From the NCBI GenBank assembly GCA_964345075.1, contig CAYFPS010000011.1, positions 13,156-77,155 on the forward strand: a stretch of DNA of 64,000 nt, written 5' to 3'. How positions within the stretch are numbered: position 1 is the stretch's first letter; every line of letters begins with the position of its first letter. The position numbers were made by a program, and so were the translations under genes. The stretch comes from an uncultured Bacteroidaceae bacterium. Lineage in GTDB: Bacteria > CAIWAD01. Positions 1,317-64,000 of this stretch are shown here, piece by piece. The notes beneath the pieces were generated by a model. That model worked only from the letters and a program-made list of their open reading frames with translations, was not told where the DNA came from and made no database searches.

Positions 1317-1325
1317 GAGGCGATC

Positions 1326-5708: not shown

Positions 5709-5808
5709 GGATTTCCTTTCCCCCGCTGCGGCTGCTCTACATTCGGCGAGAGCTTCCCATATTAACGCATTCCCGCTTGAAGAAGCTCAGATTGCCGAAA
5801 GGAAAGAC

Positions 5809-30310: not shown

Positions 30311-30364
30311 CCATCGAATCTGGCTCTGATTTTTGCATACTGCAAGCGAAGAACAGGAGATTCA

Positions 30365-30844: not shown

Positions 30845-31053
30845 AAAGGCTGTTTTGCTGTGGCTTGCTGCTGGCCCTCAGTCTGGGCTGTGTCAGGCGC
30901 GTGCAGCCCTGGGAGCGCGACCTGCTGGCCGATCCGCAGATGAGCGCCCAGCCCGATGCTGTGGAAGCCGGACTGGACGAGCATGTTTACTTTTCCAAGG
31001 AAGCCGCACACGGCGGTGATGGCGTCGGTGGAGGAGGCTGCGGATGCAATTGA
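30841..31053 (+). CDS. Small lipoprotein, DUF4266-like
   Basis: 70 aa. MKRLFCCGLLLALSLGC lipobox and a Gly/Cys tail (GGGGCGCN). This is the size and position expected for DUF4266, which pairs with DUF3570. Start overlaps the upstream stop. Confidence 0.6.
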   Translation: MKRLFCCGLLLALSLGCVRRVQPWERDLLADPQMSAQPDAVEAGLDEHVYFSKEAAHGGDGVGGGGCGCN

Positions 31054-41728: not shown

Positions 41729-41751
41729 GCAAACTCCATGCTTGGGAGCTT

Positions 41752-41787
41752 CAAAGTAAAAGAAAAGGGTGACCCTTGGGCCACCCT
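41752..41787 (-). terminator. Intrinsic terminator after T9SS gene B
   Basis: Minus-strand hairpin aagggtggcc-caag-ggtcaccctt followed by ttcttttac. Confidence 0.55.
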
Positions 41788-41810
41788 TGATTGTCTAAAT
41801 CCAGCTGCTA

Positions 41811-47684: not shown

Positions 47685-47787
47685 AGGGGCTCCTATTTAG
47701 CCTGAGGCCAGATTCTTGGCAGGTTCCGCTTGCAGCTTACAAAGTGGGGGGCGTTGATTCGAGGAAAAAACCACTATACAGCAGCTT

Positions 47788-47828
47788 TAACAATGAAAGG
47801 GGCGGCCCTCGTGAATGGACCGCCCCTT
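47788..47828 (-). terminator. Intrinsic terminator after T9SS gene C
   Basis: Minus-strand hairpin aaggggcggtcc-attcacga-gggccgcccctt followed by tcattgtt. Confidence 0.5.
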
Positions 47829-47854
47829 GCTTGAATGCGATTGCTTGGGCTGAA

Positions 47855-50800: not shown

Positions 50801-52807
50801 ACCGATGGTGGCACTGGTCAGGTCGCCCTGCATGTCTTCCAGCTGAATCAGGATACTGCCATCGGCATTCATGATGGCCTGGAAGGTGTTGGGCGGACTG
50901 CTGGGGCCGGGGTAATCGGGCACGCCCGTGAACTGCACAATGAAGCGATCGTTGGCCGTGTCTTCCAGATAGTGCACGCTTCCGACGCCATCGCCCGGAT
51001 CCAGATCGTCCCAGAACATGGAAATCATGGCATTGGGCGAACCGGCATCGGGCAGACAGACATTGCCCAGACTGGAACTGGCGGCCTGGAAGTTCAGGTG
51101 ACCGTTGGAGCTGATGTAGATCTCGCTGTAGACACCCTCATAGAAGGGGAAGTCGATGCCCATGGGGAAGGGGCCGAGGCCCTGATCGTCACCAAGAGAA
51201 ACGAGCACGGCAGCGGGATCGCCCGAAATGTCCACCCAGCTGTACTCGGGGCCATCGGGATCCTGATTATTGACCCAGGCATAACCCATTTCGTCCGGGC
51301 CGCCGCTGGTCGGGCGCTCGGGCGTGGACTGAATCATGACCTCGTAGTTGCCCACGGTGGTCCAGTCGTCACCGATCAAGAGGTGATAGCTGCCGGGCTC
51401 CAGGGAGCGTTCCATCAGGCGCGCAGCACCCCAGGGGGCCGTGCAGCTGGAGGAGTTGCTTTCATAAAGCAGGGTGCCACCGTCGCAGGGGTCGCCATCA
51501 AAGAGGGAAAGGGTCAGGCTGAAATCGCTGCCCGGCATGCAGGCATCGAAGTCGTAAAGACCCGCTTCGTCAATGGTGACCACATAGCCGACATCCGGTG
51601 CGGCGCCCCAGTAGATGTCCACGCCATCGCCCGTGTTGCCCACAAGGGTCGTGGGAACGGAAACCGTTTCCAGCGGCTCATAGGCATCACAGGGTGAATA
51701 GACATTGATCGTGAAGGCACCTTCGCCCGAACCGGGACTGGCCACACGCATGTGGTAGGTGCCGGCTTCCAGCGCCTGATTGCCCAGCAGGCCCGGGAAG
51801 GCCGCGCCCCCTTCGGTGCAGCTGACGCCGCCCGACTGGGCCAGAATCACGCCGCCATCGCAGGGCGAAGCATCCATCAGGTAGAGAATGACATCAACTT
51901 CGGTGCCAGCGTCGCAGGCATCAAAGGAGTAGATGCCGGAAGTGCCCAGGGTCAGCGTGAAACCGCTGTCGCCCCAGCCATTGCCGTCCACATCCGCCGC
52001 GTCAACCGTGCTGCCGCTGAAGCTGCCGGGAATGGTGGCCTCGGCCAGTTCATCGGCGTACTGATCGCAGGGTTCCTGGCAGATTGCGTCACTGAAGCTG
52101 ACCGTCAGGTCGTAATCACCCTCGGCCGTGCCGTAGGAATCCACCACCACATAGTAGGTGCCGGCCGGCAGGCAGCAGGGAGGCAACAGGGAGGTCCAAC
52201 CGGTGCAATCGGCGCCATCATCGTTGACGGCAACCAGGTTGAGGTTTTCGTCCAGAATGCCCAGACAGCTGTCGTAGGTGGCCGCGTCACAGACGGTGGC
52301 CGAGACTTCGTAGCTGTCATCCAGCGTAAAGGTGTACCAGGCATCCGGCCCGTTGAAGCTGGATGTGGAATAATAGCTGGTGTTACAAGCGGTGGGCGGA
52401 GGCGTACCTACCAGCAGCACATCGCTGAAGCCGACGGTCGTTCCCGAATCGGTCCAGTCGCTGCCCGCTGTAAAGATGATTTCCACAGCTTCTTCCGGCG
52501 AATCACCACCATCGCGCTGGATGCGATCGGTCGTGCCAGCCAGCGGAAAGAGGCGGCTGATCAGCCATGCCGGGGCTTCTTCACCCTGTTGCTTGTACCA
52601 GGCGTAAAGGTCTTGGTCAGCCAGATTCCGCTCCGCGCCGGAATCCAGCAGGTGGCCGTATTCGGCCTCAAGCTCAGCCATGCTCTGTCCGCTGGTCCGG
52701 GACTTCTGCTCAAGGTCCTCGATGGACAGAGCAAAGCCTGCTGGGCAAGCAATGAACAGAGCAATCCACCCGGTCAATACGGGCACCAATCGTCCGATGT
52801 GTGACAT
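47855..52807 (-). CDS. T9SS cargo protein C (about 1650 aa), paralog of B with the same module order
   Basis: Probable start MSHIGRLVPVLTGWIALFIACPAGFALS at 52807, which has the same GGAGCCCCTATG context as gene B. The track ORF up to 52894 adds 29 aa with no signal-peptide character. N-terminal 200 aa show strong paralogy to B. C-terminus NHPNPFNPVTSISW...KAVLLK. Confidence 0.85.
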   Translation of the reverse strand: MSHIGRLVPVLTGWIALFIACPAGFALSIEDLEQKSRTSGQSMAELEAEYGHLLDSGAERNLADQDLYAWYKQQGEEAPAWLISRLFPLAGTTDRIQRDGGDSPEEAVEIIFTAGSDWTDSGTTVGFSDVLLVGTPPPTACNTSYYSTSSFNGPDAWYTFTLDDSYEVSATVCDAATYDSCLGILDENLNLVAVNDDGADCTGWTSLLPPCCLPAGTYYVVVDSYGTAEGDYDLTVSFSDAICQEPCDQYADELAEATIPGSFSGSTVDAADVDGNGWGDSGFTLTLGTSGIYSFDACDAGTEVDVILYLMDASPCDGGVILAQSGGVSCTEGGAAFPGLLGNQALEAGTYHMRVASPGSGEGAFTINVYSPCDAYEPLETVSVPTTLVGNTGDGVDIYWGAAPDVGYVVTIDEAGLYDFDACMPGSDFSLTLSLFDGDPCDGGTLLYESNSSSCTAPWGAARLMERSLEPGSYHLLIGDDWTTVGNYEVMIQSTPERPTSGGPDEMGYAWVNNQDPDGPEYSWVDISGDPAAVLVSLGDDQGLGPFPMGIDFPFYEGVYSEIYISSNGHLNFQAASSSLGNVCLPDAGSPNAMISMFWDDLDPGDGVGSVHYLEDTANDRFIVQFTGVPDYPGPSSPPNTFQAIMNADGSILIQLEDMQGDLTSATIGIENADGTIGLSYNCNTDGGSIIDGTAVLFTQLEGDFIAPLITLDAMPSTTIETELTGDYVVEATITDESGLTSANLYYTLNGGAAVEVALTNTAGDDYTGAIPHQDAGNTVVWWLEAVDASDLANVRITESYSFEVVSYTWPPFGLDATDGLLDYTQITWMAPVEPTMALAWFGGDMPAGETEALDRLVREHGLSKTEALEVWESMQAGSSREFITYHVYRDGEDIATTTELFYYDMPGDGAEQDVEYDYHVTAEFDSGESDASNTDSGFRGSRPTSGGPDAFGYIWVSSLDVAGPEYEWIDISGSGQDLAIVGDDTSGQINLPFDFPFYGSFYSSALVSSNGYLTFGGDGTDYTSDPIPTADDPNDLIAPFWDDLYTSVGGVIYYEYIEAQSCVVIQWQDVPHLAMPEYTNTFQAVLYQSGIIQISWEDMYPGDLQNATVGIENSDASIGLAYNVNGEGGAISNEVTMIMTPPSNCEPVECDGIAEAEPNGGWADNTWNVIRCDDVICGELESDGTTTDSDWFLYTHFGGNIEVSLDLSDFDGRISLVEFENGGDTIAEADVFPRCFDEAFAVTELEGGSYFIVVEHVGDPDLEGAQSYSLSLTCSGDPCAGHNPIDCEGTAEAEPNEGWNADPPNSSYGVIALDETICGTVWAENGERDMDWFLLELESAINLTISCEVDAFDAALFLTEMDPAGGVLLEVDDAPACAPESLSYEALPSGSYFIVIGHNDLYGVPEEQAYSLTVSGNLAEQDMCEGYEDVPDFHDIWTVVADTAPQYAHHSGTGCPGDVSSPGLDYTVRIVLSQTTDLQVTMTGAGNADEVILLVGNCETPAISCGAAVDDFGAGTESETLTFAGLPAGDYWLVADFAGYGEAHPFVMEIIDMNSSLAEGRELSFQLKQNHPNPFNPVTSISWTQPEMEKAELAIYNLMGEMVMQQDLGLRNAGTHNYMWDASSLSSGVYIYTLKVGAHVDTKKAVLLK

Positions 52808-52911
52808 AGGGGCTCCCAAATCCTTGAGCCAGTGTGATGTTAAAGGCAGGTTCCGAAGGGCTAGAGTAGCAAATCCCAAGCTGGAATCATGCATTTGGGA
52901 CCTTGTGCAAT

Positions 52912-52939
52912 AAAAAAGGGTCCCGCCTGCGCGGGACCC
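52912..52939 (-). terminator. Intrinsic terminator after T9SS gene D
   Basis: gggtcccgc-gcag-gcgggaccc hairpin followed by TTTTTT on the minus strand, directly after the gene D stop. Confidence 0.8.
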
Positions 52940-52961
52940 TGTTGCTTCTGATAAAGCTGGA

Positions 52962-55900
52962 TTACTTCAGAAGGACGGCCTTCTTGGTATCCGTGAAGTC
53001 GCCAACGGTCAGCGTGTAGATGTACACACCGCTGGAAAGGCTGCTGGCATCCCAGACAAAGCTGTGGCTACCGGCGGCGCGGCTACCGAGCTCGACGCTC
53101 TGAACCTTTTCACCCATGATGTTGAAGACCGTCAGGTTGGCCTGGGCCAGCTCGGGCTGGTTCCAGCTGATGGTCGTCGTCGGGTTGAAGGGGTTCGGGT
53201 AGTTCTGCTCGAGGCTGAAGCTGGCCACGATGGTCGGGTCAACATCGATGTCATAACCGAAGCAGAAGTTCAGGTCATAGGCATCGCTGCCCCAACCGGC
53301 ACCGCTGTCCAGCAGGCTGGTCATGTCGGCACCCGTCGAGCTGCTGCCCCAGAGGAACCAGCAGCTGGCGTCGCCGGCACCCTGAACACCGATCCAGCCT
53401 TCGGCCATTTCCAGCGGAGCGGGCAGGTCGAAGGTGAAGGTCATGCTCTCGTAAACACCGGCGTAGAGGTTGCCCGTCGGGACACCACTCAGGCTGACGT
53501 CGAAGGACTCAACCTCGTTGCCCGGCAGGTTGCCGGCTTCGTAGAAGGTGATGTAGAAGGGCGTGGGATCTTCGGTACAGGCATTCCAGGCGGCACCGTC
53601 GTTGAAGAGGGCCAGACCGTCAAAGCTGACGCTCGTGATGGCCTGCGGCACGTTGCCAAAGGCTTCTGCGCGGTTGTAGAAAGTACCGGCGCCGTCGGTG
53701 TCAAATTCGGAAACGCCGAAGCTCCAGCTGTCATCCACACCGGCAACCGTCTGGCAGTCAACATACTCGATCGTGCCACCGCAGGTGGTCTCAAGCGTGA
53801 AGGTGTAGTCACCACCGGTCCAGGCGTAGCAGTCAACCACCACATAGTAGGTGCCGGCGTCGTAGCTGCCCGTGATCGATTCGTCGGAACCGACGGCCCA
53901 GGGCATGTCAAGGCAATCCAGCGGATCGCAGCTGCCGAGCAGAACCAGATCAAGGTCTTCTGCATCCGGGGAGCTCATCGTGATGGTCATCAGACCGCCA
54001 GCGTGCTCGAGCTCGTACCAGACTTCCGGTCCGTCTTCACCGCCGAAGCAGTAGTCTTCGTACATGTTGCCAACCTGGCTGTCGGCGTTGGAACCCATCA
54101 TGAGGCCATTGCACTCGAGGGTGATGGTGGCATCGCAGGGATCGGTGAATTCACAGGGAACACAGTCCACGAAGAGGCTGTAGGCCTGCTCGTCAACAAC
54201 ACCTTCAAAGCCGTTGTGACCCATCCACACGTAGTAGATACCGGCGGGCAGGCACTGGCTCATGGCCTCGCCATCATAGCTCTCGGGCTCGCAGAAGCCG
54301 GCGTTGTTGACGGTGGCGATGATGTTGTAAGCGTCGTCCATGATGAAGACCAGACCGTCGAACATTTCGACATCGGCGCTGATCGTCATGTAGGTGTCAC
54401 CCAGCGTGAAGACCTCGAACCAGTCGGCATCACGGAAGCCACCATCGGCCCAGACGGTACCGCAGGTGGTCGTGCCGCATTCGATCGTGCCGAAGGTGTC
54501 GTCGCCACCAAAGTCCACCGGACCATTGTTGGGCTCGCCTTCGTCCAGGCCGTCGCACTCGATGGGCTCGCAGCTGCCACAGGAGATGTTCAGGCTGAAG
54601 TTACCTTCGCTAGAACTGTAACCATCGACAACCAGCCAGTAGGTACCGGCATCCAGGGCCATCACAATCTGGCTCTGCAGGCCGCAGCTGTCGTCGTTGG
54701 AGGCGATCATGGTGCCGCCACTGACCGGGCAACCATCCCACAGGGTCAGGTAGCTGTCGTAGTCCGTGCCGCCGTCGCAAAGGTCGAAGGTCACAGGGGC
54801 GGTGGCATCGACGTCAATCTGGAAGAAGAAGTCGCCGGAAGCATTGTTCACGTAATTGAACATGCCGACGGTGCTACCCGCGTAGCTGTCACCGCAGCCA
54901 AGCACAACGGGATCCACGCAGGGATCGTCGATGTTGCAGGCTTCGGCCACGACAGTCAGGCCATAGTTGGCAGGAATGTCAACACCCGTGAAGCCATTGG
55001 GGCCAACCCACACATAGTAGGTGCCGGCAAAGAGGCAGGCGGAGACAATCTGCTCGTCACCACAGATACCGGCGTTGTCAGCCGTGTAGAGGATGGTGGC
55101 GGCGTCGCTGTCGATGATGAACATCAGAGCGTTGAATTCTTCCACGGCGAGGTCGGCGGTAATGATCGAGTTCTCGGTCACGACCAGCTCGAACCAGTCC
55201 GTGTCGCGGGAATCGAAGCCCGTCTCGTCATCGAAGTAGGTGTAAACCGTACCGCAGACGGTTTCGCCACTGGTGATGGAACCGAAGGTGCCGTCGCCAT
55301 TGGGGCCGTCATTGGGCTCGACTTCAGCCGTGCCGTCGCAGTTGATGGGATCGCAGCTGTTGCAGGTCACGTTCAGGCTGAAGTTACCTTCGCTGGCACT
55401 GTAACCGTCCACAACCAGCCAGTAGGTGCCGGCGGTCAGGGTGGCGTCAATCTGGCTCTGCAGGCCGCAGCTGTCGTCGTTGTTGGCGATCATCGTGCCG
55501 CCGTCGGTTGGGCAGGCATCCCACAGGGTCAGGTAGCTGTCATAGTCCGTGCCGCCGTCGCAAAGGTCGAAGGTCACGGGGCCGTCGGAGGCCAGATCAA
55601 TCTGGAAGAAGAAGTCGCCAGCAGCGTTGTTGACATAGTTGAACATGCCAACCGTGCTGCCCACATAGTTGTCACCACAGCTGAGGACAACCGGATCGAT
55701 GCAGGGATCGTCACCGGCCTGGCCTTCTTCTGCGGTAAAGGCTACGTTGCCACCTTCGCCGTAGTAGTCCGTGATGGCGATGATGTAGTCAACGCCCGTC
55801 TCGAAGACGAAATCGCCCTGCGTCAGGTAGGTGGCCCAGGCTGCGACGGCGCAGCCACTGTCGCCGTCACGATAGAAGAGCTCAACCATCGTGTCACAGG

Positions 55901-56354
55901 CGTCGAAGATGTACAGGTCGGTGTCACAGTCGGTGCCATCAACACAGGTGTCGATGTTCAGGCCAACGCCCGTACCCGTCCAGGCAAAGTACTGGAAACC
56001 GCCAGCGGGAATCGCCCAGGTGGTTCCCGCTGAAGCGAGAATGTCTTCGGCAGAAGCACAGTCTTCGTTACGGTTCTCGAGGCTGGGCGTGACGCGGTTG
56101 GCCGTGCGGAGGTGGGCTTCCACCTTGGCCAGCTGTTCGGCACTCAGTTCGCCCGTGCTACCGAGATTGCCCCTCAGGGCTTCGTTCTCAACCACATCCT
56201 TGACAACGAGCTCGGCCGAGTTGCCGAAAGGAACGTTCTCGAGGTTCTGGTTGCTGTTTGCCTTGCTGCTCGTGGAAGCCGCGGAAATGCCCAGCGAAGC
56301 ATAGGCGCTACCCGCGACGGCCAGGACGAGACCAGCCGTAAGCAATTTCTTCAT
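52962..56354 (-). CDS. T9SS cargo protein D (1130 aa) built of repeated PPC-like Cys-containing modules with Por_Secre_tail CTD
   Basis: Signal peptide MKKLLTAGLVLAVAGSAYA. Repeats of ..EPN.GP...G....CGTV......D.DWFE..... and DLCDGGTDYDSYLTLWD.CP..GGTMIA.NDDSCGLQSQI (two near-identical copies). C-terminus NYPNPFNPTTTISW...KAVLLK. Confidence 0.85.
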   Translation of the reverse strand: MKKLLTAGLVLAVAGSAYASLGISAASTSSKANSNQNLENVPFGNSAELVVKDVVENEALRGNLGSTGELSAEQLAKVEAHLRTANRVTPSLENRNEDCASAEDILASAGTTWAIPAGGFQYFAWTGTGVGLNIDTCVDGTDCDTDLYIFDACDTMVELFYRDGDSGCAVAAWATYLTQGDFVFETGVDYIIAITDYYGEGGNVAFTAEEGQAGDDPCIDPVVLSCGDNYVGSTVGMFNYVNNAAGDFFFQIDLASDGPVTFDLCDGGTDYDSYLTLWDACPTDGGTMIANNDDSCGLQSQIDATLTAGTYWLVVDGYSASEGNFSLNVTCNSCDPINCDGTAEVEPNDGPNGDGTFGSITSGETVCGTVYTYFDDETGFDSRDTDWFELVVTENSIITADLAVEEFNALMFIIDSDAATILYTADNAGICGDEQIVSACLFAGTYYVWVGPNGFTGVDIPANYGLTVVAEACNIDDPCVDPVVLGCGDSYAGSTVGMFNYVNNASGDFFFQIDVDATAPVTFDLCDGGTDYDSYLTLWDGCPVSGGTMIASNDDSCGLQSQIVMALDAGTYWLVVDGYSSSEGNFSLNISCGSCEPIECDGLDEGEPNNGPVDFGGDDTFGTIECGTTTCGTVWADGGFRDADWFEVFTLGDTYMTISADVEMFDGLVFIMDDAYNIIATVNNAGFCEPESYDGEAMSQCLPAGIYYVWMGHNGFEGVVDEQAYSLFVDCVPCEFTDPCDATITLECNGLMMGSNADSQVGNMYEDYCFGGEDGPEVWYELEHAGGLMTITMSSPDAEDLDLVLLGSCDPLDCLDMPWAVGSDESITGSYDAGTYYVVVDCYAWTGGDYTFTLETTCGGTIEYVDCQTVAGVDDSWSFGVSEFDTDGAGTFYNRAEAFGNVPQAITSVSFDGLALFNDGAAWNACTEDPTPFYITFYEAGNLPGNEVESFDVSLSGVPTGNLYAGVYESMTFTFDLPAPLEMAEGWIGVQGAGDASCWFLWGSSSTGADMTSLLDSGAGWGSDAYDLNFCFGYDIDVDPTIVASFSLEQNYPNPFNPTTTISWNQPELAQANLTVFNIMGEKVQSVELGSRAAGSHSFVWDASSLSSGVYIYTLTVGDFTDTKKAVLLK

Positions 56355-56540
56355 ACAATTCTCCCTTGCTGTGGTCGGAGCGATCGCCCGTACCGCGACC
56401 CTGCGGTAGCCGGACAGGCAGCTGCGCCCAGAGAGCGACAGCCAAGCCCTTCGGCATGGGTTCCAAGCACCGACTGTTCCTGAAATGATGAGTGATGGTT
56501 TGCCAATTCGTGTCTATACCTGTTGAAAGGACACCTGCTC

Positions 56541-56580
56541 ATTATAGAAAGACAGGGGGAGACTTCACAACGACAAAGCT
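56541..56580 (-). promoter_or_regulatory. sigma70-like promoter of T9SS gene D with a ~180-nt 5' UTR
   Basis: Minus strand TTGTGA-N18-TATAAT. ATG at 56354 preceded by AAGGGAGA. Confidence 0.5.
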
Positions 56581-56629
56581 GCAGCAAGAAAAAAAAGTAG
56601 CGTACAGTTCTACCTGCTGGCGTGCAGTT

Positions 56630-57757
56630 TCATGCACGGATGCTCGCTTCATAGAGCTGGACGTACACAGGAAGGATTTTGTCGATGGCAAAGCGGTCGC
56701 AGGCGCTGTCCCGGGCAGCCCGCGCAATCATGTCGTAATGCCGGGCATCGGAGAGCAGTTCAAGAGCCGCCTGCGCCATCGCCCCAGTATCACCCTTGTC
56801 GCACAAGTAGCTGTTCTGGCCCGAGTCAATCAGCTCCGGCAAACCGCCCACACGGCAGGCAACAACCGGTACACCACAGCTCATCGCCTCCAGCGCGGCC
56901 AGCCCGAAACTTTCCGATTCACTTGGCAGCAGAAAGACGTCGGCAACGTTCATCAGATCGACGATGTTCTCGTTGTTGCCAATGAAGTGGACGCGTGATT
57001 CAAGCTCCAGCTCTCGCACCAGTTCTTTCATGCCGTTGCGCTCAGGCCCCAGACCAGCCAGAATCAGCCGGGCGGGCAGCTTCGCCTGCACATTGGCGAA
57101 GGTTTGTATCACATCCTGAACCCGCTTGACCGGCCGGAAATTGGAAACGTGCAGCAGCAGCTTTTCATCCGGATTGGCGTAACAGCAACGCAAGTCGGCC
57201 AGGCAAAGGGGCCTGAACTCATCGGTATCCACGAAGTTGTGAATCCGTGTGACATTCAGATCCTGGCCAAAGACGCGCAGGGTTTCATCCTTGAGCCAGT
57301 CACTGACGCTTGTGATCGCATCGCTCTGCTTGAGCGTGAATTGTGTCACGGGCAGGTAGCCGGGATCCTGCCCGACCAGAGTGATGTCCGTTCCGTGCAG
57401 GGTAGTGACCAGGGGCAGCCGGTCATCTTCCAGCATGCGACTGGCCATCCAGGCGCTGATTGTGTGCGGAATCGCATAGTGGGCATGGATCAGATCCAGC
57501 CGCTCGCGCTTGTGGATTTCCAGAATCTTGCTGGTCAGTGCCAGCGAATAGGGGGGATATTCAAACAGGGGATAACTGGAAACTTCCACCTGATGAAAGT
57601 GCACGCCCGGATACATGCGATCCAGCCGAAAGGGTTTGCGGTAGCTGATGAAGTGCACCTGATGGCCGATCTTGGCCAGCTCCAGCCCGAGTTCCGTTGC
57701 GACAATGCCGCTTCCACCCTGCGTTGGGTAACAGATGATGCCGATATGCATGCTCAT
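56630..57757 (-). CDS. bshA: Bacillithiol biosynthesis glycosyltransferase BshA (GT4)
   Basis: MHIGIICYPTQGGSGIVATELGLELAKIGHQVHFISY, matching the BshA N-terminus. GT-B fold, with the C-terminal E-x7-E region. Confidence 0.8.
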   Translation of the reverse strand: MSMHIGIICYPTQGGSGIVATELGLELAKIGHQVHFISYRKPFRLDRMYPGVHFHQVEVSSYPLFEYPPYSLALTSKILEIHKRERLDLIHAHYAIPHTISAWMASRMLEDDRLPLVTTLHGTDITLVGQDPGYLPVTQFTLKQSDAITSVSDWLKDETLRVFGQDLNVTRIHNFVDTDEFRPLCLADLRCCYANPDEKLLLHVSNFRPVKRVQDVIQTFANVQAKLPARLILAGLGPERNGMKELVRELELESRVHFIGNNENIVDLMNVADVFLLPSESESFGLAALEAMSCGVPVVACRVGGLPELIDSGQNSYLCDKGDTGAMAQAALELLSDARHYDMIARAARDSACDRFAIDKILPVYVQLYEASIRA

Positions 57758-58473
57758 TGTCCCTCGCCTGCAAAGTGCTGCAGCGGATCTGCAATTTCCA
57801 GCATACCCTCGTGCCAGAAAGCCTCGCCATAGCGCTTGCCGATCAGCTGTCCGTAATACATGGCTCTGGCCTCAATGAAATGCCAGAAATCCGGGGAAGA
57901 AATAGGAGTGAGAGGTTCTGTGCTTTCCGGATTGTAGAACTGACTTTTGTAACACATGGCAGCTTTTCTGCGCACTTCCCACTGGGCCGTGATGTCCACA
58001 ACAAAACTGGGTGTGAACTCGCGTCTGCCGGGGTAGAAAAGGATGCTGCGCGGGCGGAAGTGCTCCTGGGCCGTGTCCACTTTTGCCATGCCCGACAGGT
58101 AGCAGGCCTTGCGCACAAGTTGAGCGGCAGCTTCGTGATCCGGATGGTCATCTCGCTCCCAGGGGGCAAGCACAATTCCGGGCCTGTACCGGCGGATCAT
58201 GCGCACCAGCTCTATTGCCTGATCACGCCCGGCCTCCAGCCTGCCATCACCAAGATCCAGACAATGGCGGAAGTCCAGACCCAGCAGAGCAGAGGCGGCG
58301 CGGCTTTCCTCGGCACGAATCTCCCTGCTGCCGCGGGTTCCCATCTCGCCTGCCGTCAAGTCCACGATGCCGATGCTGTGTCCGGCGGCTTTCATCTTGA
58401 GCAGGGTTCCCGCCGCACAGATCTCCACATCATCGGGATGGGGCCCGAAAGCCAGAACGGTTTGTGTGCTCAT
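57754..58473 (-). CDS. bshB: N-acetyl-alpha-D-glucosaminyl L-malate deacetylase BshB (LmbE/PIG-L family)
   Basis: VLAFGPHPDDVEICAAGTLLK...GIVDLTAGEMG (LmbE zinc-binding HPDDE motif). Confidence 0.8.
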   Translation of the reverse strand: MSTQTVLAFGPHPDDVEICAAGTLLKMKAAGHSIGIVDLTAGEMGTRGSREIRAEESRAASALLGLDFRHCLDLGDGRLEAGRDQAIELVRMIRRYRPGIVLAPWERDDHPDHEAAAQLVRKACYLSGMAKVDTAQEHFRPRSILFYPGRREFTPSFVVDITAQWEVRRKAAMCYKSQFYNPESTEPLTPISSPDFWHFIEARAMYYGQLIGKRYGEAFWHEGMLEIADPLQHFAGEGQ

Positions 58474-59918
58474 GCCTTTATCCCCGCTTCTGTGAGTTCC
58501 CCGTTCGATTCCACAATAAAGCGCTGCTGCTCATGCTTCAGCGGATCAATCTTCTTGAGCAGACGATCCACAAGCCCCAGGCCGCCCATGCGTCCCAGCA
58601 GGGCAAGACTGTTGACCCGCCGCTCCTGCGCACCACGACTTCCATCCTGCCAGATGCCTGCAGAGTGCAGGTCCTTCAGGCCAGCGCGATGTGTAGCCTT
58701 GTGTCGCGCCAGCAGCTGATCGGCAAGCTGTGTTACAAGATCACTGATGCGCCCACTACGCTTTTCCAGATATGCAGCTGATGGATCTGTCAGGTAGGGC
58801 TCAATGACCTTCACGATTGTATCACGGGCGTGTGTGATGGTCTGCATGTCGTGTTCACAAGCTTCTCCGCCAGGGAGTTGCCTTAGAAATTCCACTGACC
58901 ACGGATCACCGGGATGCGGGGCATGCCATGGGTTAAGGCCACGCTCGCTGAATTGGATCACATCGCTGCGTCTGGCCAGCTGCAGGCGCGGGCGCGCAAA
59001 CTCCAGCGGGCGATCCAGCCCCAGCACTTCCCGGGCGGACAAAAGCTGCTGATGATAGGCGCGCTCGGTTGGTCCCAGAATCACGGCGGCTGGCTTAAGC
59101 AAGGCATCCTGCAGCAGGACACGGCCCAGGGCATTTGGACTCAGCTTTTCCGGATCAGGACTCGCCTGCCATTCCTGCATTCGCTGCCGGTTGCCGGCCT
59201 CATCCTCGAGGAACCAGAGCGGGCGATCATCCACCGCAACAGGTGCCTTCATGCCCTTTGCTATCAGCGTGGATGTATCACGGGCAATGGCTTCAGAGAG
59301 TTTATGCCCATGAGCCTTCATCGCTTCGTATACGGGCAGACTGAGTTCGCGAAACTCGGGATCGGAAGGATCGAGCAAAAGCAGCTCGGCCTTCGGTAAA
59401 AGGGTCCGAAGCACTCTGGCAAAGGCCTCTACAAGAGTCGTGCTGCTCGCAGGATTCAAGTGCTGCCTTTCCTGTGGAGCAAGCAGAGATAGAACTGACT
59501 CAAGCAGCTCTGTCTGTTTCAGCCACCAGTCTGCGGAAAGCGCGACCTGCCCCACGCTCCATGAGCCTTCTCTGGGCGCTGCAAGCGGGGCTGTCAAAGG
59601 GTAGCCGGCCGCAGCCGCCTCTTTCCAGTCGTGATCGTTGCTTTCCATCCAGAAGAGGCAGAGGGGGCGTGGCTGTCCAGCGGCTTCCAGCTTGTCGGCC
59701 AGAGCCAGCATGCCAAGCAGCTTCCAGAGTGTTAGCGCCGGACCACCAAAAAGCCCGCACTGCTGTCCGGTCACCAATAGGGGCGTGCCATCAATCAGCC
59801 GCTGCTGGTGTTCAGGCGAAAGGACCCCACCAAAGCGCTTCTGCTGGCGAAGAAGCAGCTCGACCAGCCTTGTATCACGCTGGACATTCTGCTCGCAGGC
59901 TTCCTGCAGGGTCTTCAT
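58470..59918 (-). CDS. bshC: Bacillithiol biosynthesis cysteine-adding enzyme BshC
   Basis: 482 aa. VTGQQCGLFGGPALTLWKLL and FWMESNDHD, which correspond to the TGQQ.GLF.GP / FW...EDHD hallmarks of BshC (YllA). Confidence 0.7.
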   Translation of the reverse strand: MKTLQEACEQNVQRDTRLVELLLRQQKRFGGVLSPEHQQRLIDGTPLLVTGQQCGLFGGPALTLWKLLGMLALADKLEAAGQPRPLCLFWMESNDHDWKEAAAAGYPLTAPLAAPREGSWSVGQVALSADWWLKQTELLESVLSLLAPQERQHLNPASSTTLVEAFARVLRTLLPKAELLLLDPSDPEFRELSLPVYEAMKAHGHKLSEAIARDTSTLIAKGMKAPVAVDDRPLWFLEDEAGNRQRMQEWQASPDPEKLSPNALGRVLLQDALLKPAAVILGPTERAYHQQLLSAREVLGLDRPLEFARPRLQLARRSDVIQFSERGLNPWHAPHPGDPWSVEFLRQLPGGEACEHDMQTITHARDTIVKVIEPYLTDPSAAYLEKRSGRISDLVTQLADQLLARHKATHRAGLKDLHSAGIWQDGSRGAQERRVNSLALLGRMGGLGLVDRLLKKIDPLKHEQQRFIVESNGELTEAGIKA

Positions 59919-60670
59919 TAGTGGCTCCCCCGCTCAAGCACCAGCAGGCTGCGAGCGGATTGCGCTGTCCAGCTCTCAGCTGCCAGATTTCCCCAATGGG
60001 CTTTCAGCCGGTAACCTGCCTTGATGGCCGGAGCCAGAAACCACTCCGGCTCGTAGAGTTTGACCTGCTCTTCAATCACCCTTCTGCCGCTTGGCCTTTC
60101 CAGCGTGATACGTTTGCAGACCATGTTGCGCGAAGCGTCGATTCTGCGCTCTTCCAGCACATGAATTTCACCCACTGTGCGTTCGCTGGTGGCAATCAGG
60201 TTTTCTTTCAGACTCTGTGGATTGAGGTAATCGAAGACGATCCTGCCGCCAGCGCCGGGCAGCTGCAAATAGCGCTCCCAGCAGGCCATGTTGACCCGAT
60301 CGTCCTCGTGGTAACCGAAGCTGGAGAAGAGGCTCATAACCAGGTCTGCGCCGGGTCTGATGGGCATTTGATTCAAATCCCCGCGAAGGAAGAGGGGATT
60401 GTTTTCCGTTGCATTTGCAGCACGCACCGCTTCTTCAAGGAGACTGAGCGACCAGTCCAGCGCGATCACGCGATAGCCTCTGGCAGCCAGCTGCAGACTG
60501 TGGCGGCCAGCTCCGCAGCCAAGATCCAGTACACGGGCTCCGGGAGCGGGAAGCAGCCCGGCGAGCCTCAACTTCTCGAGCAGGCCGGCGGCCTCCTCGG
60601 GGCTGCGATGCTGATAGAGTGCCAGATAATCCTGGTCAAACCAGGTGCGGTGCCAGTCATTGCTTTGCAT
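59918..60670 (-). CDS. Class I SAM-dependent methyltransferase (candidate bacillithiol N-methyltransferase NmbA-like)
   Basis: VLDLGCGAGRHSLQLAARGYRVIALD (motif I) and DLVMSLFSSFGY (post I/II). Its stop overlaps the bshC start, and it is the first gene of the bsh operon. Confidence 0.6.
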   Translation of the reverse strand: MQSNDWHRTWFDQDYLALYQHRSPEEAAGLLEKLRLAGLLPAPGARVLDLGCGAGRHSLQLAARGYRVIALDWSLSLLEEAVRAANATENNPLFLRGDLNQMPIRPGADLVMSLFSSFGYHEDDRVNMACWERYLQLPGAGGRIVFDYLNPQSLKENLIATSERTVGEIHVLEERRIDASRNMVCKRITLERPSGRRVIEEQVKLYEPEWFLAPAIKAGYRLKAHWGNLAAESWTAQSARSLLVLERGSH

Positions 60671-60708
60671 TGGAATAAAATGGGGATTCGCGGGCGACTG
60701 CCAAAGAC

Positions 60709-62715
60709 TCAGGCGGCTGTGTCTTCCAGCTCCTGCAGCAGGGCTTTGAGCCGATCAAGCTTGAAGGGTTTGGCCAGTGCGCGATCCACCTTGTGCTGGC
60801 TCAAGTCTTCCTGCCTTATTTGTGCGCCCCAGCCGCTAACCATGACAATGTGTGCCGCTGAAAGGCCGCGATCGGATTCCGATTGCCTTAGCCGATCGGC
60901 AAACTCCCAGCCATTCATGCCGGGCATGCCCAGATCTGTGAAAATCAGATCCTGTGCTTCACGCTGCCAGATATCCAGCGCCTCCTGAGCAGCTTCCGCG
61001 CTGCTGACTTCGTGTCCCATCATTTTCAGGATGTCACACAGCACATTGCGAACATCGGGTTCGTCGTCCACCACCAGGATTCTGCGGGAACGAAGTCCGC
61101 GAAGAGCCTCCTTCTGGGGCGTGCGCTTTTCAGTGCTTGTTTCAGCCGGTGGCAGATCCAGTGGCAGCGTGATACGAAAGCTGCTTCCGGATCCCAGATG
61201 GCTGGTGGCCTGGAGCTCGCCCTGATGGCGTTGAATGATACCCTGCGCCATGCTGAGCCCCAGTCCGTTTCCGCGCTTGCCTTTTGTTGTAAAGAAGGGA
61301 TCAAAGAGGCGCTCGAGGACTTCCGGCGTCATGCCGTGTCCGCTGTCCTTAACTTCCAGCACTGCACGCTCGTCTTCCGTGATACACGAAATGCCAATTT
61401 CACCCCCGGTTGGCATGGCGTCCAGCGCATTTTGAAAGAGGTTATGCAAAACCTCGCGCAGCTCACTGGCGTTGCCCCTGACCCAGATGTCATTCGCGCC
61501 TTCAAGCGATACGCTGTAGGTGATTCCAAGCCGGTTGGCCCGGTCCTTCCAGATGGGCCGCATCATTTCAATGACTTCACTCATCAACTCGCGCGCGTTG
61601 AGTGGGCTGAAGTCGGTCTCCTGTGTGACACGGCTGAAGTCCTGGATGCGCTTGACAACAGCCGCCCCGTCCAGAGCGCTGCGATGAATCAGATCCAGAC
61701 CACTTCGCAGATCGGGCGCGAGTTCTTCCAGCTGAAGAAGCTCGGTGCGTGCCACAATGGAGCCGAGGACATTGTTGAAATCGTGCGCTACGCCACTGGC
61801 CAACTGACCCATGGCCTTCATCTTTTCCGATTGCACCAGGCTCTTGCGGGTGCGCAAAAGTTCTTCGTTAAGGTCTTTCAAACTTTGGTTGACCTGTGCA
61901 ACTTCCAGGGACCTGGCCTTCAGGCTATTCTGATTCTCGCTAAGCTCTTCATTCAAGCGGGCAAGTTCCCGGTTCCCTTCTTCCAGTTCCTGACGCTGCT
62001 CGGCAAGCTGCCTGTTGGCCACTTGCACTTCGGCCAATCGTCGCAGGTAAGAGTAGACCCAGCCCAGCGGGATTGCGCTAAGCAGAAATCCCATCCAGCC
62101 GAATTGCAGGTAGAGGTAGGCAAGCAGAGCACCCAGATAGAAGAGAATCAGGTTGCTCCAAAGTTCGAAGTAATGCCCTTGACTGAACTGTTTGCGAAAA
62201 GGTGTACCCAATTGCAGGCGGATGGCGAGTGAGATCAGACTCAGATTGACCAGCGTGAAAGCCACGAAGGGCAGGATGAGCATTGGCAGAACCATGGGAT
62301 GGCTCAGGTCGGGCATCTGACCGCTCTTTCCACCCAGCGCATGATAGACCAGATTCGCCGCATTGACGGCCAGTACAGTCTGGCTCACATTGAACAGGCT
62401 GCGATACCAGACGGTCTTTCGCTGCAAGGCGTTGTAGCGCAGGCTGTTGATGGCGACCGCAGGCCCGGCAAAGGGTGCGCCAAAGACCAGGATCAGACAG
62501 TAATTAAGGGCCGAGTTGAGCGTGCTGGTACTTGTGCCTTCACTGCTGGCAACGTGAAAACTGCCGACCCAAAGCAGGATAGCCAGCCAGATGGCATACG
62601 TAAGCCAGGCTTCGCTGCCTGGCTGTGTGGCGAGCAATTGCTGCAGGTTCCAGAAAACGGCCGCGAGGCCTGCCAGAATGGTTAAGCTGACATGAATCAG
62701 GAGGGGCCTGTTCAT
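60709..62715 (-). CDS. Hybrid sensor histidine kinase/response regulator with N-terminal multi-TM sensor domain
   Basis: About 7 TM helices, a coiled coil, HisKA (SGVAHDFNNVLGSI), HATPase (NLFQNALDAM..GLGLSMAQGI), and a C-terminal receiver (ILVVDDEPDV..DLIFTDLGMPGMNGWEF). Confidence 0.85.
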   Translation of the reverse strand: MNRPLLIHVSLTILAGLAAVFWNLQQLLATQPGSEAWLTYAIWLAILLWVGSFHVASSEGTSTSTLNSALNYCLILVFGAPFAGPAVAINSLRYNALQRKTVWYRSLFNVSQTVLAVNAANLVYHALGGKSGQMPDLSHPMVLPMLILPFVAFTLVNLSLISLAIRLQLGTPFRKQFSQGHYFELWSNLILFYLGALLAYLYLQFGWMGFLLSAIPLGWVYSYLRRLAEVQVANRQLAEQRQELEEGNRELARLNEELSENQNSLKARSLEVAQVNQSLKDLNEELLRTRKSLVQSEKMKAMGQLASGVAHDFNNVLGSIVARTELLQLEELAPDLRSGLDLIHRSALDGAAVVKRIQDFSRVTQETDFSPLNARELMSEVIEMMRPIWKDRANRLGITYSVSLEGANDIWVRGNASELREVLHNLFQNALDAMPTGGEIGISCITEDERAVLEVKDSGHGMTPEVLERLFDPFFTTKGKRGNGLGLSMAQGIIQRHQGELQATSHLGSGSSFRITLPLDLPPAETSTEKRTPQKEALRGLRSRRILVVDDEPDVRNVLCDILKMMGHEVSSAEAAQEALDIWQREAQDLIFTDLGMPGMNGWEFADRLRQSESDRGLSAAHIVMVSGWGAQIRQEDLSQHKVDRALAKPFKLDRLKALLQELEDTAA

Positions 62716-62729
62716 GGGGGCAAGTCCTG

Positions 62730-63083
62730 TCAGTTGCTTCCCATGACCCAGAGAATGCGGTCGCCCAGAGTTTCCATCAGATTCGTATTAAAGTAGTCCT
62801 GCTGCCGGACGCGCTCTCTTAGCGAACCCAGTGCTTCCGGGCTGTGCGTGGCCGCTTTGGAGAGGTCCTCGCCGGAGAGCTGATCAAAAAGCTGGGCGGA
62901 AAAGGCACGGTCGAAGACCAGCTCTTCTTTTTTCAGGGATTCCATCAAATGATCGAGGATCTGATCGCGGCGCTCTTCCCACTCGGCCTGGGGAACCTGC
63001 TCCATGTGCTGCACGAGCAGTCTGCACAGCTGAACGAAGTGAGGGGCTGTCGTATGCATGGCTCTCCCAAAGCTTGCTGTCAC
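62730..63083 (-). CDS. Hypothetical protein
   Basis: 117 aa, helical/charged. Immediately upstream of the hybrid kinase and co-oriented with it. Confidence 0.35.
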   Translation of the reverse strand: MTASFGRAMHTTAPHFVQLCRLLVQHMEQVPQAEWEERRDQILDHLMESLKKEELVFDRAFSAQLFDQLSGEDLSKAATHSPEALGSLRERVRQQDYFNTNLMETLGDRILWVMGSN

Positions 63084-63335
63084 CGGCCTGAACCGACGCT
63101 ACTATCGGCTAAAGTTCGGAAGTTCTGAAGCTGTTTGCATGCAAAAACATGCACGCTGGAGCTTTTTGCCCCTTTTCCTGCAATGAACTCTTTTTGCCCC
63201 GTCTGATTCTTGACACCCCGCATTTCAGATTTTTCGTGCAGGAATCGAATCCTAAGTTCATCCCATCAGGCCAGACACGGCCAGACTGCCATCAGAACAG
63301 CCGCTTTTGCGAAAAAGCCAATTCCGGAGGTCATC

Positions 63336-63767
63336 ATGCTTGTCAGACATCTGCTGGGCCAGAAAGGCAATGAAGTTCAGACCACGACTCCTGCTGCTAC
63401 CGTGCAGGAAGCCCTCGATGCCATGATCACCCATCGCGTGGGTTCGCTGCTGGTGATGGATCAGGGCACCTTGACCGGCATTGTCACCGAGCGGGATGTT
63501 TTACGCCGCGGCCTGGCTGATGTGCGAAAACTGCGCGAGCAGCAGGTGCATGAGGTGATGAGCACGGATCTGGTGATCGCCACACCCGATGACAGCCTGC
63601 AGTACCTGATGGGTCTGATGACCCGCAACAAGATTCGCCATGTGCCGGTCTTTGAGGATGGTAGCCTCTGCGGTGTGGTCAGTATTGGCGATGTGGTTTT
63701 CGCGCTGGTGGAAGAGCACGCCACGGAAAACCGCTATCTGCGCGACTACATTCAGGGCAGCTATTGA
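63336..63767 (+). CDS. CBS-pair domain protein
   Basis: MLVRHLLGQKGNEVQTT... with two CBS motifs. ATG at 63336 preceded by GGAGG; the track ORF from 63210 is a 5' extension. Confidence 0.75.
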   Translation: MLVRHLLGQKGNEVQTTTPAATVQEALDAMITHRVGSLLVMDQGTLTGIVTERDVLRRGLADVRKLREQQVHEVMSTDLVIATPDDSLQYLMGLMTRNKIRHVPVFEDGSLCGVVSIGDVVFALVEEHATENRYLRDYIQGSY

Positions 63768-64000
63768 TGAAACCTTCAGCCCGCGAGCAGTTTGAACAGG
63801 AGCGCGCGCGGCTTCAGGAGCGCTTGCAGGAGCGGGGAAACCGTAACCTCAAGCGCTTTCTTTCCGTGGATCACGCCTGCTATCAGGATGGCGCGCTTAA
63901 GGCCGGCACCAAGGAACTGTTGGGGCTGGTGGCCAGTCTGGTGCTTCGCTGCGATGATTGCATCAGCTACCATGTGATACAAAGCCACAAGGCCGGTTGG
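63767..64000 (+). CDS. Carboxymuconolactone decarboxylase/AhpD-like protein (3' end lies outside the window)
   Basis: MKPSAREQFEQERARLQERL...LRCDDCISYH with the AhpD-type CxxCxxxH motif. Start overlaps the CBS gene stop (TGATG). Open to the window edge. Confidence 0.6.
   Translation, partial: MKPSAREQFEQERARLQERLQERGNRNLKRFLSVDHACYQDGALKAGTKELLGLVASLVLRCDDCISYHVIQSHKAGW

What the first reader, a model, noticed from the sequence alone, without database searches (positions are those of the whole stretch)
56630..60670. Complete bacillithiol operon (bshC-bshB-bshA) headed by a SAM methyltransferase: possible N-methyl-bacillithiol locus
bshC, bshB and bshA are translationally coupled on the minus strand, with overlapping stops and starts. 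The first gene of the unit is a class I SAM-dependent methyltransferase whose stop overlaps the bshC start. In Chlorobi a dedicated methyltransferase (NmbA) converts bacillithiol to N-methyl-bacillithiol, and N-methyl-BSH was proposed to be widespread in the FCB group. Physical fusion into one operon would be strong contextual support for that function here. The nearby metK-ahcY-metH-metF genes supply and recycle the SAM.
Basis: partly seen in the sequence, partly recalled or inferred. Interest (0 to 1): 0.6.

Follow-up and report, generated by a model that had tools for sequence, protein, structure and literature searches.

The report
N-methyl-bacillithiol biosynthesis operon (nmbA-bshCBA)
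Four tightly packed genes encode the three enzymes that make the protective thiol bacillithiol plus a credible relative of NmbA, the enzyme that N-methylates it; the reading is sound, but it adds an uncultured lineage to a known, widespread pathway rather than a new kind of system.

Summary
Four complete minus-strand ORFs run 60670 to 56630: a class I SAM methyltransferase, BshC, BshB1 and BshA. Their stops and starts overlap by 1, 4 and 4 nt.

The methyltransferase's best match among solved structures is 9RI2, the Chlorobaculum tepidum bacillithiol N-methyltransferase NmbA (CT1040): 120 bits and 38% identity, against 45 bits for the next hit. It carries the family's conserved motifs and falls in a tree clade with homologs from lineages where N-methyl-bacillithiol synthesis has been shown. 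The order MT→bshC(→bshB→bshA) recurs in 26 of about 76 evaluable NmbA-like loci from five other phyla.

Three corrections apply:
- The methyltransferase may not head the unit. A 109-aa ORF and a MASE9 hybrid histidine kinase lie upstream with 14- and 38-nt gaps, and the kinase precedes the methyltransferase in every relative recovered.
- BshC is a short, divergent, lineage-specific form that scores below NCBI's cut-off.
- metK/ahcY/metH/metF are 34–54 kb away and are housekeeping genes.

GroEL suggests Candidatus Delongbacteria. NmbA is already biochemically and structurally characterised and predicted in 1,765 species. This is a new member of a known kind, of modest interest.

The parts
59918..60670 (-). 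nmbA-like class I SAM-dependent methyltransferase (250 aa), predicted bacillithiol cysteine-N-methyltransferase
   Evidence: Best PDB hit is 9RI2 CtNmbA at 120 bits, against 45 bits for the next hit. BLASTP gives 38% identity over 211 aa. Motif I is VLDLGCGAGRH and the SSFGY motif is conserved. The AF2 model has pLDDT 93.3 and its top Foldseek hit is 9ri2_A.
58470..59918 (-). bshC, a short divergent form (482 aa) of the putative cysteine-adding enzyme
   Evidence: PF10079 scores 116.6 bits. TIGR03998 scores 161 bits, below its 265.8 cut-off. The match to 4WBD is 54 bits. The protein keeps the TGQQxGLxGGP, DHD, LDPSDP, GPxExAY and QER motifs but lacks about 55 N-terminal and about 30 internal residues. 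The 475-494 aa form is conserved in relatives.
57754..58473 (-). bshB1, GlcNAc-malate deacetylase (239 aa)
   Evidence: TIGR04001 scores 264 bits against a cut-off of 182.5. PIG-L scores 96.6 bits.
56630..57757 (-). bshA, N-acetyl-alpha-D-glucosaminyl L-malate synthase (375 aa)
   Evidence: TIGR03999 scores 508.8 bits against a cut-off of 273.7.
60671..60708 (-). 38-nt spacer between the kinase stop and the methyltransferase start
   Evidence: Sequence. No terminator-like or promoter-like site was called here, and the region shows no unusual folding. The equivalent gap is 10-42 nt in L082-L085 but 251 nt in L086/L087.
60709..62715 (-). Hybrid sensor histidine kinase (MASE9-HisKA-HATPase_c-REC, 668 aa); conserved upstream neighbour, possibly co-transcribed
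   Evidence: Pfam domains. An ortholog (52-89% identity) lies directly upstream of the methyltransferase in all six related loci recovered. It is absent upstream of the methyltransferase in 80 loci from other phyla.
62730..63059 (-). Conserved 109-aa hypothetical protein ending 14 nt upstream of the kinase (the ORF as listed starts at a GTG at 63083)
   Evidence: 59% identity to the equally placed 109-aa gene of L084. No Pfam or NCBIfam hit.
56541..56570 (-). Sigma-70-like promoter match downstream of bshA, positioned to serve the next gene (52962-56354)
   Evidence: TTGTGA-18-TATAAT, 10 of 12 matches. This is a consensus match only. It is the sole such site in 56300-63400, against 2.1 expected by chance.

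Best explanation
The locus is a co-directional, translationally coupled biosynthetic operon for N-methyl-bacillithiol.

The inferred pathway has four steps:
1. BshA joins GlcNAc (from UDP-GlcNAc) to L-malate.
2. BshB1 removes the acetyl group.
3. The short BshC adds cysteine to give bacillithiol.
4. The NmbA-type methyltransferase transfers a methyl group from SAM to the cysteine amino nitrogen.

The genes run in the reverse of pathway order (nmbA, bshC, bshB, bshA). Overlapping stop and start codons would favour balanced co-expression.

Shown here: gene identities, gene order, the overlaps, homology to the characterised NmbA, and recurrence of the gene order across phyla. Inferred: enzymatic activity, the product, co-transcription, and where the transcript starts. 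The host is probably a member of Candidatus Delongbacteria.
For: - Family assignments for BshA, BshB1 and BshC.
- Overlapping junctions read directly from the sequence.
- The methyltransferase matches CtNmbA (9RI2) at 120 bits, against 45 bits for the next structure. In the reverse direction, CtNmbA's own next-best structure scores only 62 bits.
- 38% identity over 211 aa.
- 9RI2 is the biochemically proven BSH N-methyltransferase.
- Conserved family residues (numbering of the window protein): Y15, Y19, D49, C52, G53, R56, H57, F115, S117, G119, Y120, D147, R175.
- An NJ tree places it with CtNmbA and with Paenibacillus, Bacteroidota and Ignavibacteria homologs, with 72.5% bipartition bootstrap.
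- MT→BshC adjacency occurs in 26 of about 76 evaluable NmbA-like loci. Twelve of these keep the full MT-C-B-A order, in Acidobacteriota, Planctomycetota and Anaerolineae; Hydrogenedentota keep MT-BshC, in one locus with BshB.
- All six close relatives keep the same order.
- The structural neighbours with a named function at the top of the Foldseek list are amine N-methyltransferases: CcbJ and CypM, then further down GNMT and TylM1. C-methyltransferases (SeMT, PsmD, SgMT) score between them, so this is only weak support for N-methylation chemistry.
Against: - There is no chemistry. N-Me-BSH has not been measured in this organism, which is known only from assemblies.
- An HMM built from NmbA homologs of the validated lineages scores the window protein at 192 bits. 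Unlinked homologs of unknown function score 130-217 bits, so the family boundary is not sharp.
- Deep tree nodes are weakly supported.
- Y134 of CtNmbA is kept but the adjacent F135 is His here.
- No experimentally validated NmbA lies in the sub-clade whose genes are linked to bshC.
- BshC is truncated and scores below NCBI's equivalog cut-off.
- No NCBIfam model for NmbA matched, so there is no curated threshold to pass.
Confidence: 0.8

Rival explanations
1. The transcription unit is larger and is not headed by the methyltransferase. A 109-aa protein and a MASE9 hybrid histidine kinase would be co-transcribed with nmbA-bshCBA, tying thiol synthesis to a membrane sensing pathway.
For: The gaps are 14 nt and 38 nt on the same strand. 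No terminator-like or promoter-like site was called between the kinase and the methyltransferase. The kinase lies directly upstream of the methyltransferase in all six related loci at 52-89% identity, and the 109-aa ORF is found in the three loci that extend far enough upstream. The methyltransferase start lacks a Shine-Dalgarno-like motif, whereas the three internal starts have one (read by eye).
Against: In the closest relative (L086/L087) the kinase-methyltransferase gap is 251 nt, which leaves room for an internal promoter. The kinase is absent upstream of the methyltransferase in all 80 loci from other phyla. The promoter scan covers sigma-70 consensus only. The kinase has no DNA-binding output domain. 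Conserved synteny within one lineage may simply reflect shared ancestry.
Confidence: 0.4
2. The methyltransferase is an NmbA paralog acting on another acceptor, for example a BSH precursor, a different atom of BSH, a second methylation to an N,N-dimethyl product, or an unrelated small molecule. The thiol made would then be plain BSH or a different derivative.
For: The family has no sharp score boundary. None of the validated enzymes lies in the bshC-linked sub-clade. F135 of CtNmbA is replaced by His. Several of the closest characterised folds are N,N-dimethyltransferases, namely CypM and TylM1, and DesVI by sequence. The 2025 paper notes that network singletons 'might methylate other acceptor molecules'.
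Against: Translational coupling to bshC, and the recurrence of that adjacency in at least five other phyla, argue for a role in the BSH pathway. CtNmbA branches at the base of the clade and the Paenibacillus homologs fall in the sister group, so the tested lineages bracket the linked clade. Of these sequences only CtNmbA has itself been assayed. Identity to CtNmbA is twice that to any other characterised methyltransferase.
Confidence: 0.12
3. The short BshC-like protein does not perform the canonical cysteine addition. The operon would then stop at GlcN-malate or make a variant thiol.
For: TIGR03998 scores 161 bits, below its 265.8 cut-off. The match to the C-terminal coiled-coil domain is 19.5 bits, below its cut-off of 27. 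About 55 N-terminal and about 30 internal residues are missing. The match to B. subtilis BshC is only 54 bits. BshC diverges faster than BshA and BshB among relatives.
Against: All the strongly conserved BshC motifs are retained. The short form is conserved as an intact ORF across at least ten clusters at 42-75% identity. It sits in the canonical operon position between nmbA and bshB, and no other candidate ligase lies nearby.
Confidence: 0.05

Closest known systems
NmbA (CT1040) of Chlorobaculum tepidum; N-Me-BSH synthase, PDB 9RI2 (Hiras et al. 2018, PMC6282198; Hammerstad et al. 2025, PMC12719100)
   Same: Class I SAM methyltransferase of about 250 aa with 38% identity over 211 aa. It shares motif I (VLDxxCGAGRH), the LFSSFGY motif, and a predicted cap domain of four beta-strands. 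bshA, bshB and bshC are present in the same genome.
   Different: In C. tepidum the four genes are scattered (CT0548, CT1419, CT1558, CT1040). Here they form one overlapping operon. F135 of CtNmbA is His here. The activity of the window protein is untested.
Bacillus subtilis bacillithiol genes (bshA-bshB1 in the mgsA operon; bshC with panE/ylbQ), reviewed in PMC5790435
   Same: The same three enzyme families and the same inferred pathway to BSH.
   Different: In B. subtilis bshC is transcribed separately and there is no nmbA. B. subtilis BshC is 541 aa with an extended coiled coil, whereas the window BshC is 482 aa with N-terminal and internal deletions.
MT-bshC-bshB-bshA clusters in Thermoanaerobaculia and other Acidobacteriota, Planctomycetota and Anaerolineae, MT-bshC(-bshB) in Hydrogenedentota, and MT-bshC pairs in Gemmatimonadota
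   Same: The same gene order on one strand, and the same methyltransferase sub-clade in the NJ tree.
   Different: Those BshC proteins are of canonical length (535-565 aa). None of those loci has the hybrid kinase upstream. Methyltransferase identity to the window protein is only 31-37%.
Mycothiol pathway (MshA/MshB/MshC/MshD)
   Same: An analogous GT4 glycosyltransferase, PIG-L deacetylase and cysteine-addition logic. The window BshA hits MshA weakly (90 bits).
   Different: All msh models score far below their cut-offs. There is no MshC- or MshD-type gene, and the acceptor is malate rather than inositol.

Membership tests
NmbA (bacillithiol N-methyltransferase) | Class I SAM methyltransferase Rossmann core with motif I VLDIAxGxG | tested here: met
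   The window protein has VLDLGCGAGRH at residues 47-57. Methyltransf_25 and Methyltransf_11 both match. The AF2 model has pLDDT 93.3 and shows a seven-strand core. The motif is described.
NmbA (bacillithiol N-methyltransferase) | Closer in sequence to characterised NmbA than to any other characterised methyltransferase (35% identity or more, as in the published similarity network) | tested here: met
   9RI2 scores 120 bits against 45 bits for the next PDB hit. BLASTP identity is 38%. NCBIfam hits to other methyltransferase families are at most 43 bits, all below their cut-offs.
NmbA (bacillithiol N-methyltransferase) | Falls in a clade with the validated enzyme (CtNmbA) and homologs from the other validated lineages (Paenibacillus, Flavobacteriia), to the exclusion of other methyltransferases | tested here: inconclusive
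   The NJ topology agrees and the bipartition bootstrap is 72.5%. Internal nodes are weak, and HMM scores form a continuum with homologs not linked to bsh genes. The PpNmbA and Polaribacter sequences themselves were not available. Congeneric or related homologs from genome loci were used instead.
NmbA (bacillithiol N-methyltransferase) | Co-occurrence with bshA, bshB and bshC in the same genome | tested here: met
   All four genes are in one overlapping operon.
NmbA (bacillithiol N-methyltransferase) | Aromatic pair Y134/F135, proposed to stabilise the adenine of SAM | tested here: inconclusive
   Y is conserved (Y120 here). F135 is replaced by H121.
NmbA (bacillithiol N-methyltransferase) | Narrow 'molecular basket' cap-domain topology seen in the crystal structure | not testable with these tools
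   The paper reports that AlphaFold mispredicts this topology even for CtNmbA. Foldseek TM-scores do not separate 9RI2 from CcbJ, 3D2L or CypM.
NmbA (bacillithiol N-methyltransferase) | SAM-dependent methylation of the cysteine nitrogen of BSH | not testable with these tools
   This requires an enzyme assay or thiol profiling.
BshA (TIGR03999) | Score above the curated equivalog cut-off | tested here: met
   508.8 bits against 273.7.
BshB1 (TIGR04001) | Score above the curated equivalog cut-off | tested here: met
   264 bits against 182.5.
BshC (TIGR03998 / PF10079) | Score above the curated equivalog cut-off, with full-length architecture including the C-terminal coiled coil | tested here: not met
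   TIGR03998 scores 161 bits, below 265.8. PF24850 scores 19.5 bits, below 27. The protein is 482 aa against about 540 aa.
BshC (TIGR03998 / PF10079) | Rossmann-like BshC domain and conserved motifs (GQQxGLxGGP, DHD, LDPSDP, GPxExAY) | tested here: met
   PF10079 scores 116.6 bits against 27. The motifs align with named BshC proteins. The only PDB hit is BshC 4WBD.

The most novel reading that the evidence does not exclude
In this Delongbacteria-like lineage, N-Me-BSH synthesis may belong to a six-gene unit: a 109-aa protein, a MASE9 hybrid histidine kinase, then nmbA-bshC-bshB-bshA. That would link low-molecular-weight thiol production to a two-component membrane sensor.

The lineage's trimmed BshC is always translationally coupled to NmbA. 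It could be a minimal form useful for solving the still-unreconstituted BshC reaction. One possibility is that NmbA or another operon product supplies the partner that has been missing in vitro.
Probability: 0.12. Interest if true: 0.5.

Novelty: new member of a known kind. Interest (0 to 1): 0.3.

Why it matters
The result extends predicted N-methyl-bacillithiol use to an uncultured candidate phylum. The 2025 survey did not cover that phylum, because it searched only validly published phyla.

It also shows something the N-Me-BSH papers held in the searchable library do not mention. In several phyla nmbA is physically fused into an operon with bshC, and often also with bshB and bshA. This is independent genomic-context support for NmbA's role.

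The arrangement gives a simple rule for separating true NmbA orthologs from look-alike class I methyltransferases. It also provides a compact four-gene cassette for heterologous production of N-Me-BSH.

The conserved short BshC may interest those trying to reconstitute the BshC reaction. None of this changes the known picture of the pathway.

Tried and rejected
- NCBIfam has no NmbA model. The methyltransferase hit only generic families, all far below their cut-offs, so this library could not decide the question.
The best locus was only 35-39% identical. Taxonomy was therefore inferred from GroEL.
- A Biopython bootstrap run timed out. It was replaced by a numpy distance and NJ bootstrap.
- Fold search does not discriminate NmbA from other cap-bearing N-methyltransferases.
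- I tested whether the 311-aa flavoprotein near the operon in relatives is the bacillithiol disulfide reductase YpdA. It is TrxB: TIGR01292 scores 386 bits against a cut-off of 343, while YpdA scores 73 bits against 340.
- I looked for a terminator or promoter between the kinase and the methyltransferase, and for a terminator after bshA. Nothing convincing was found.
- Rfam found no riboswitch or RNA element in 55000-64000.
- I rejected functional linkage to metK/ahcY/metH/metF. They are 34-54 kb away, on other strands or in other units, and are universal housekeeping genes.
- My first automated 'directly downstream' count failed because stop-to-stop ORF starts were used. The counts were taken from the printed offsets instead.


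Full report
**Observation**

The region 56630-60670 holds four complete ORFs on the minus strand: 59918-60670 (250 aa), 58470-59918 (482 aa), 57754-58473 (239 aa) and 56630-57757 (375 aa). The sequence shows the junctions directly:
- cacTAATGaag, a 1-nt overlap of stop and start.
- gcATGAgc, a 4-nt overlap.
- caATGAgcATG, a 4-nt overlap. A second ATG two codons downstream could be the true bshA start.

Curated models identify the last two genes unambiguously. BshA scores 508.8 bits on TIGR03999 against a cut-off of 273.7. BshB1 scores 264 bits on TIGR04001 against 182.5.

The second gene matches the Rossmann-like BshC domain at 116.6 bits against a cut-off of 27. Its only match among solved structures is B. 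subtilis BshC, 4WBD. It scores only 161 bits on TIGR03998, below the 265.8 cut-off.

The first gene is a class I SAM methyltransferase (Methyltransf_25 and Methyltransf_11).

**Identity of the methyltransferase**

This is the crux of the finding. NmbA is no longer only a genetic inference. Hammerstad et al. 2025 (PMC12719100) showed biochemically that CtNmbA and Paenibacillus polymyxa NmbA methylate the cysteine nitrogen of BSH, and solved the CtNmbA structure as PDB 9RI2.

Sequence evidence:
- Searched against all PDB sequences, the window protein hits 9RI2 at E 7.3e-34 (120.5 bits) over residues 3-233. The next hit, 1WZN, scores 44.8 bits.
- In the reverse direction, CtNmbA's own next-best structure scores 62 bits. 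The window protein is therefore closer to CtNmbA than any other solved methyltransferase is.
- BLASTP gives 38% identity over 211 aa. That is above the 35% floor of the published similarity network.
- Motif I (VLDLGCGAGRH), the LFSSFGY block and other family-invariant positions are present. The one noted difference is His in place of CtNmbA F135.
- UbiE, BioC, TehB and rRNA methyltransferase models all score 43 bits or less, far below their cut-offs.

Structural evidence is consistent but not decisive. An AlphaFold model (pLDDT 93.3) has 9ri2_A as its top Foldseek hit. CcbJ, 3D2L and CypM score almost equally. The paper reports that AlphaFold mispredicts the NmbA cap domain, so the fold agrees with the assignment without discriminating.

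**Phylogeny**

I built an NJ tree of 55 sequences. It included the window protein, its close relatives, methyltransferases translated from named GTDB genomes, CtNmbA, weaker homologs and two PDB outgroups.

The window protein falls inside a 39-member clade. That clade contains CtNmbA and homologs from Paenibacillus, Ignavibacteria, Bacteroidota and Waddlia. All weak homologs and both outgroups are excluded. The bipartition is recovered in 72.5% of 200 bootstraps, and internal nodes are weak.

An HMM trained only on homologs from the validated lineages scores the window protein at 192 bits, against 78-89 bits for the PDB outgroups. Unlinked homologs of unknown function score 130-217 bits, so the family has no sharp edge. 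Sequence alone therefore makes orthology likely but not certain.

**Genomic context**

Context supplies the independent evidence. A scan of one genome per GTDB species returned 80 NmbA-like loci. Searching their flanks with the window proteins and with a BshC HMM gave these results:
- bshC lies directly downstream on the same strand in 26 of about 76 evaluable loci.
- This holds in all 12 Gemmatimonadota loci and in 10 Thermoanaerobaculia or other Acidobacteriota loci. It also holds in one Planctomycetota, one Anaerolineae and two Hydrogenedentota loci.
- Twelve loci keep the full MT-bshC-bshB-bshA order.
- The genes are unlinked in Bacteroidota, Paenibacillus, Ignavibacteria and Holophaga. 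In C. tepidum they are scattered (CT0548, CT1419, CT1558, CT1040).

The papers on N-Me-BSH held in the library, and the 2025 supplement, never mention an operon, neighbourhood or synteny for nmbA.

**Close relatives and the true extent of the unit**

Six metagenomic loci were examined. Five carry methyltransferases 54-81% identical to the window's, and one (L001) is an identical fragment. All keep the order hybrid histidine kinase, methyltransferase, BshC, BshB, BshA, as far as each contig extends.

The upstream genes are as follows:
- The kinase (window 60709-62715) has MASE9, HisKA, HATPase_c and receiver domains. It ends 38 nt before the methyltransferase start.
- A conserved 109-aa hypothetical protein (62730-63059) is 59% identical to its L084 counterpart. 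It ends 14 nt before the kinase.
- Beyond it lies a divergent CBS-domain gene.

No terminator-like or promoter-like site was called between the kinase and the methyltransferase. The claim that the methyltransferase is the first gene of the unit is therefore doubtful.

Two points argue the other way. The closest relative has a 251-nt kinase-methyltransferase gap. The kinase is absent upstream in all 80 loci from other phyla. Its association may therefore be lineage-specific synteny rather than function.

**BshC**

The window BshC belongs to a small clade of 475-494 aa proteins at 42-75% identity. The next relatives are canonical BshC of 510-580 aa at about 28% identity.

Alignment shows a loss of about 55 N-terminal residues and an internal segment of about 30 residues. 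The TGQQxGLxGGP, DHD, LDPSDP, GPxExAY and QER motifs are retained. The C-terminal coiled-coil model matches only weakly.

The BshC reaction has never been reconstituted in vitro (review PMC5790435). A conserved minimal form is mildly interesting for that reason. I regard it as a functional, divergent BshC.

Among relatives, the methyltransferase and BshC diverge faster (54% and 44-49% identity) than BshB and BshA (68-78%).

**Met genes and host**

The met genes are all real: metK (20141-21322), ahcY (21334-22743), metH (2250-5708) and metF (5707-6756). They lie 34-54 kb from the operon and are universal housekeeping genes. They add nothing specific to the argument.

The window's GroEL is 89% identical to a protein named Candidatus Delongbacteria bacterium. 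The next named relatives, Calditrichota and KSB1, are about 75% identical. The window also carries flagellar genes and several giant proteins with T9SS sorting tails.

The 2025 census covered only validly published phyla. Its dataset has no Delongbacteria entry.

**Verdict**

The locus is most likely an N-methyl-bacillithiol biosynthetic operon (confidence about 0.8). Product chemistry and the transcript boundaries remain inferred.

NmbA is already characterised genetically, biochemically and structurally, and is predicted in 1,765 species. This is therefore a new member of a known kind.

The modest added value lies in three things:
- The recurrent nmbA-bshC operon fusion, which serves as contextual proof and as an annotation rule.
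- The extension of the pathway to a candidate phylum.
- The short BshC and the conserved upstream kinase.

Noticed in passing
window 60709-63059 (minus strand); L082-L087: A MASE9 hybrid histidine kinase is conserved directly upstream of nmbA-bshCBA in all six related loci, with a 38-nt gap in the window. A 109-aa hypothetical protein precedes the kinase (14-nt gap) in the three loci that extend far enough upstream. Neither is found upstream in other phyla.
   Followed up: partly
window 58470-59918: BshC is a lineage-specific short form (475-494 aa). It lacks about 55 N-terminal and about 30 internal residues and has only a weak coiled-coil match. It scores below NCBI's BshC cut-off but keeps all the core motifs.
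   Followed up: yes
L082-L087 compared with window 56630-62715: Within this lineage the methyltransferase (54% identity) and BshC (44-49%) diverge much faster than BshB and BshA (68-78%).
   Followed up: no
window 63336-63767 (+); L082 85-5272: A divergently transcribed CBS-domain protein is 78% conserved. In relatives it is followed by an AhpD-like CMD protein and SfsA, then a T9SS-tailed protein and thioredoxin reductase (TrxB, not YpdA). The neighbourhood has a redox theme, and most of it lies beyond the window end.
   Followed up: partly
window 39470-56354 (minus strand): Four tandem giant proteins (752, 1957, 1679 and 1130 aa). The two scanned (752 and 1130 aa) have T9SS Por_Secre_tail and PPC domains, and the 1679-aa protein ends in a near-identical tail sequence. 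Long GC-driven shadow ORFs (up to 1028 aa) lie on the opposite strand.
   Followed up: no
window 30-2249: The flagellar hook-associated genes flgK and flgL are present in an organism that also carries T9SS cargo. GroEL points to Candidatus Delongbacteria.
   Followed up: partly
window 2250-6756: metH (minus strand) and metF (plus strand) are divergent, and their listed starts overlap by 2 nt. The MTHFR match begins at residue 44, so the true metF start is probably further downstream.
   Followed up: no
window 29810-33273: A cluster of DUF2231, a ResA/TlpA-like thiol:disulfide oxidoreductase, DUF3570 and the ApbE flavin transferase. It may be an envelope redox module.
   Followed up: no
L004-L007 (Gemmatimonadota): In Gemmatimonadota the nmbA-bshC pair sits directly downstream of an RlmH-like gene. 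bshB and bshA are not within the 8 kb downstream.
   Followed up: no
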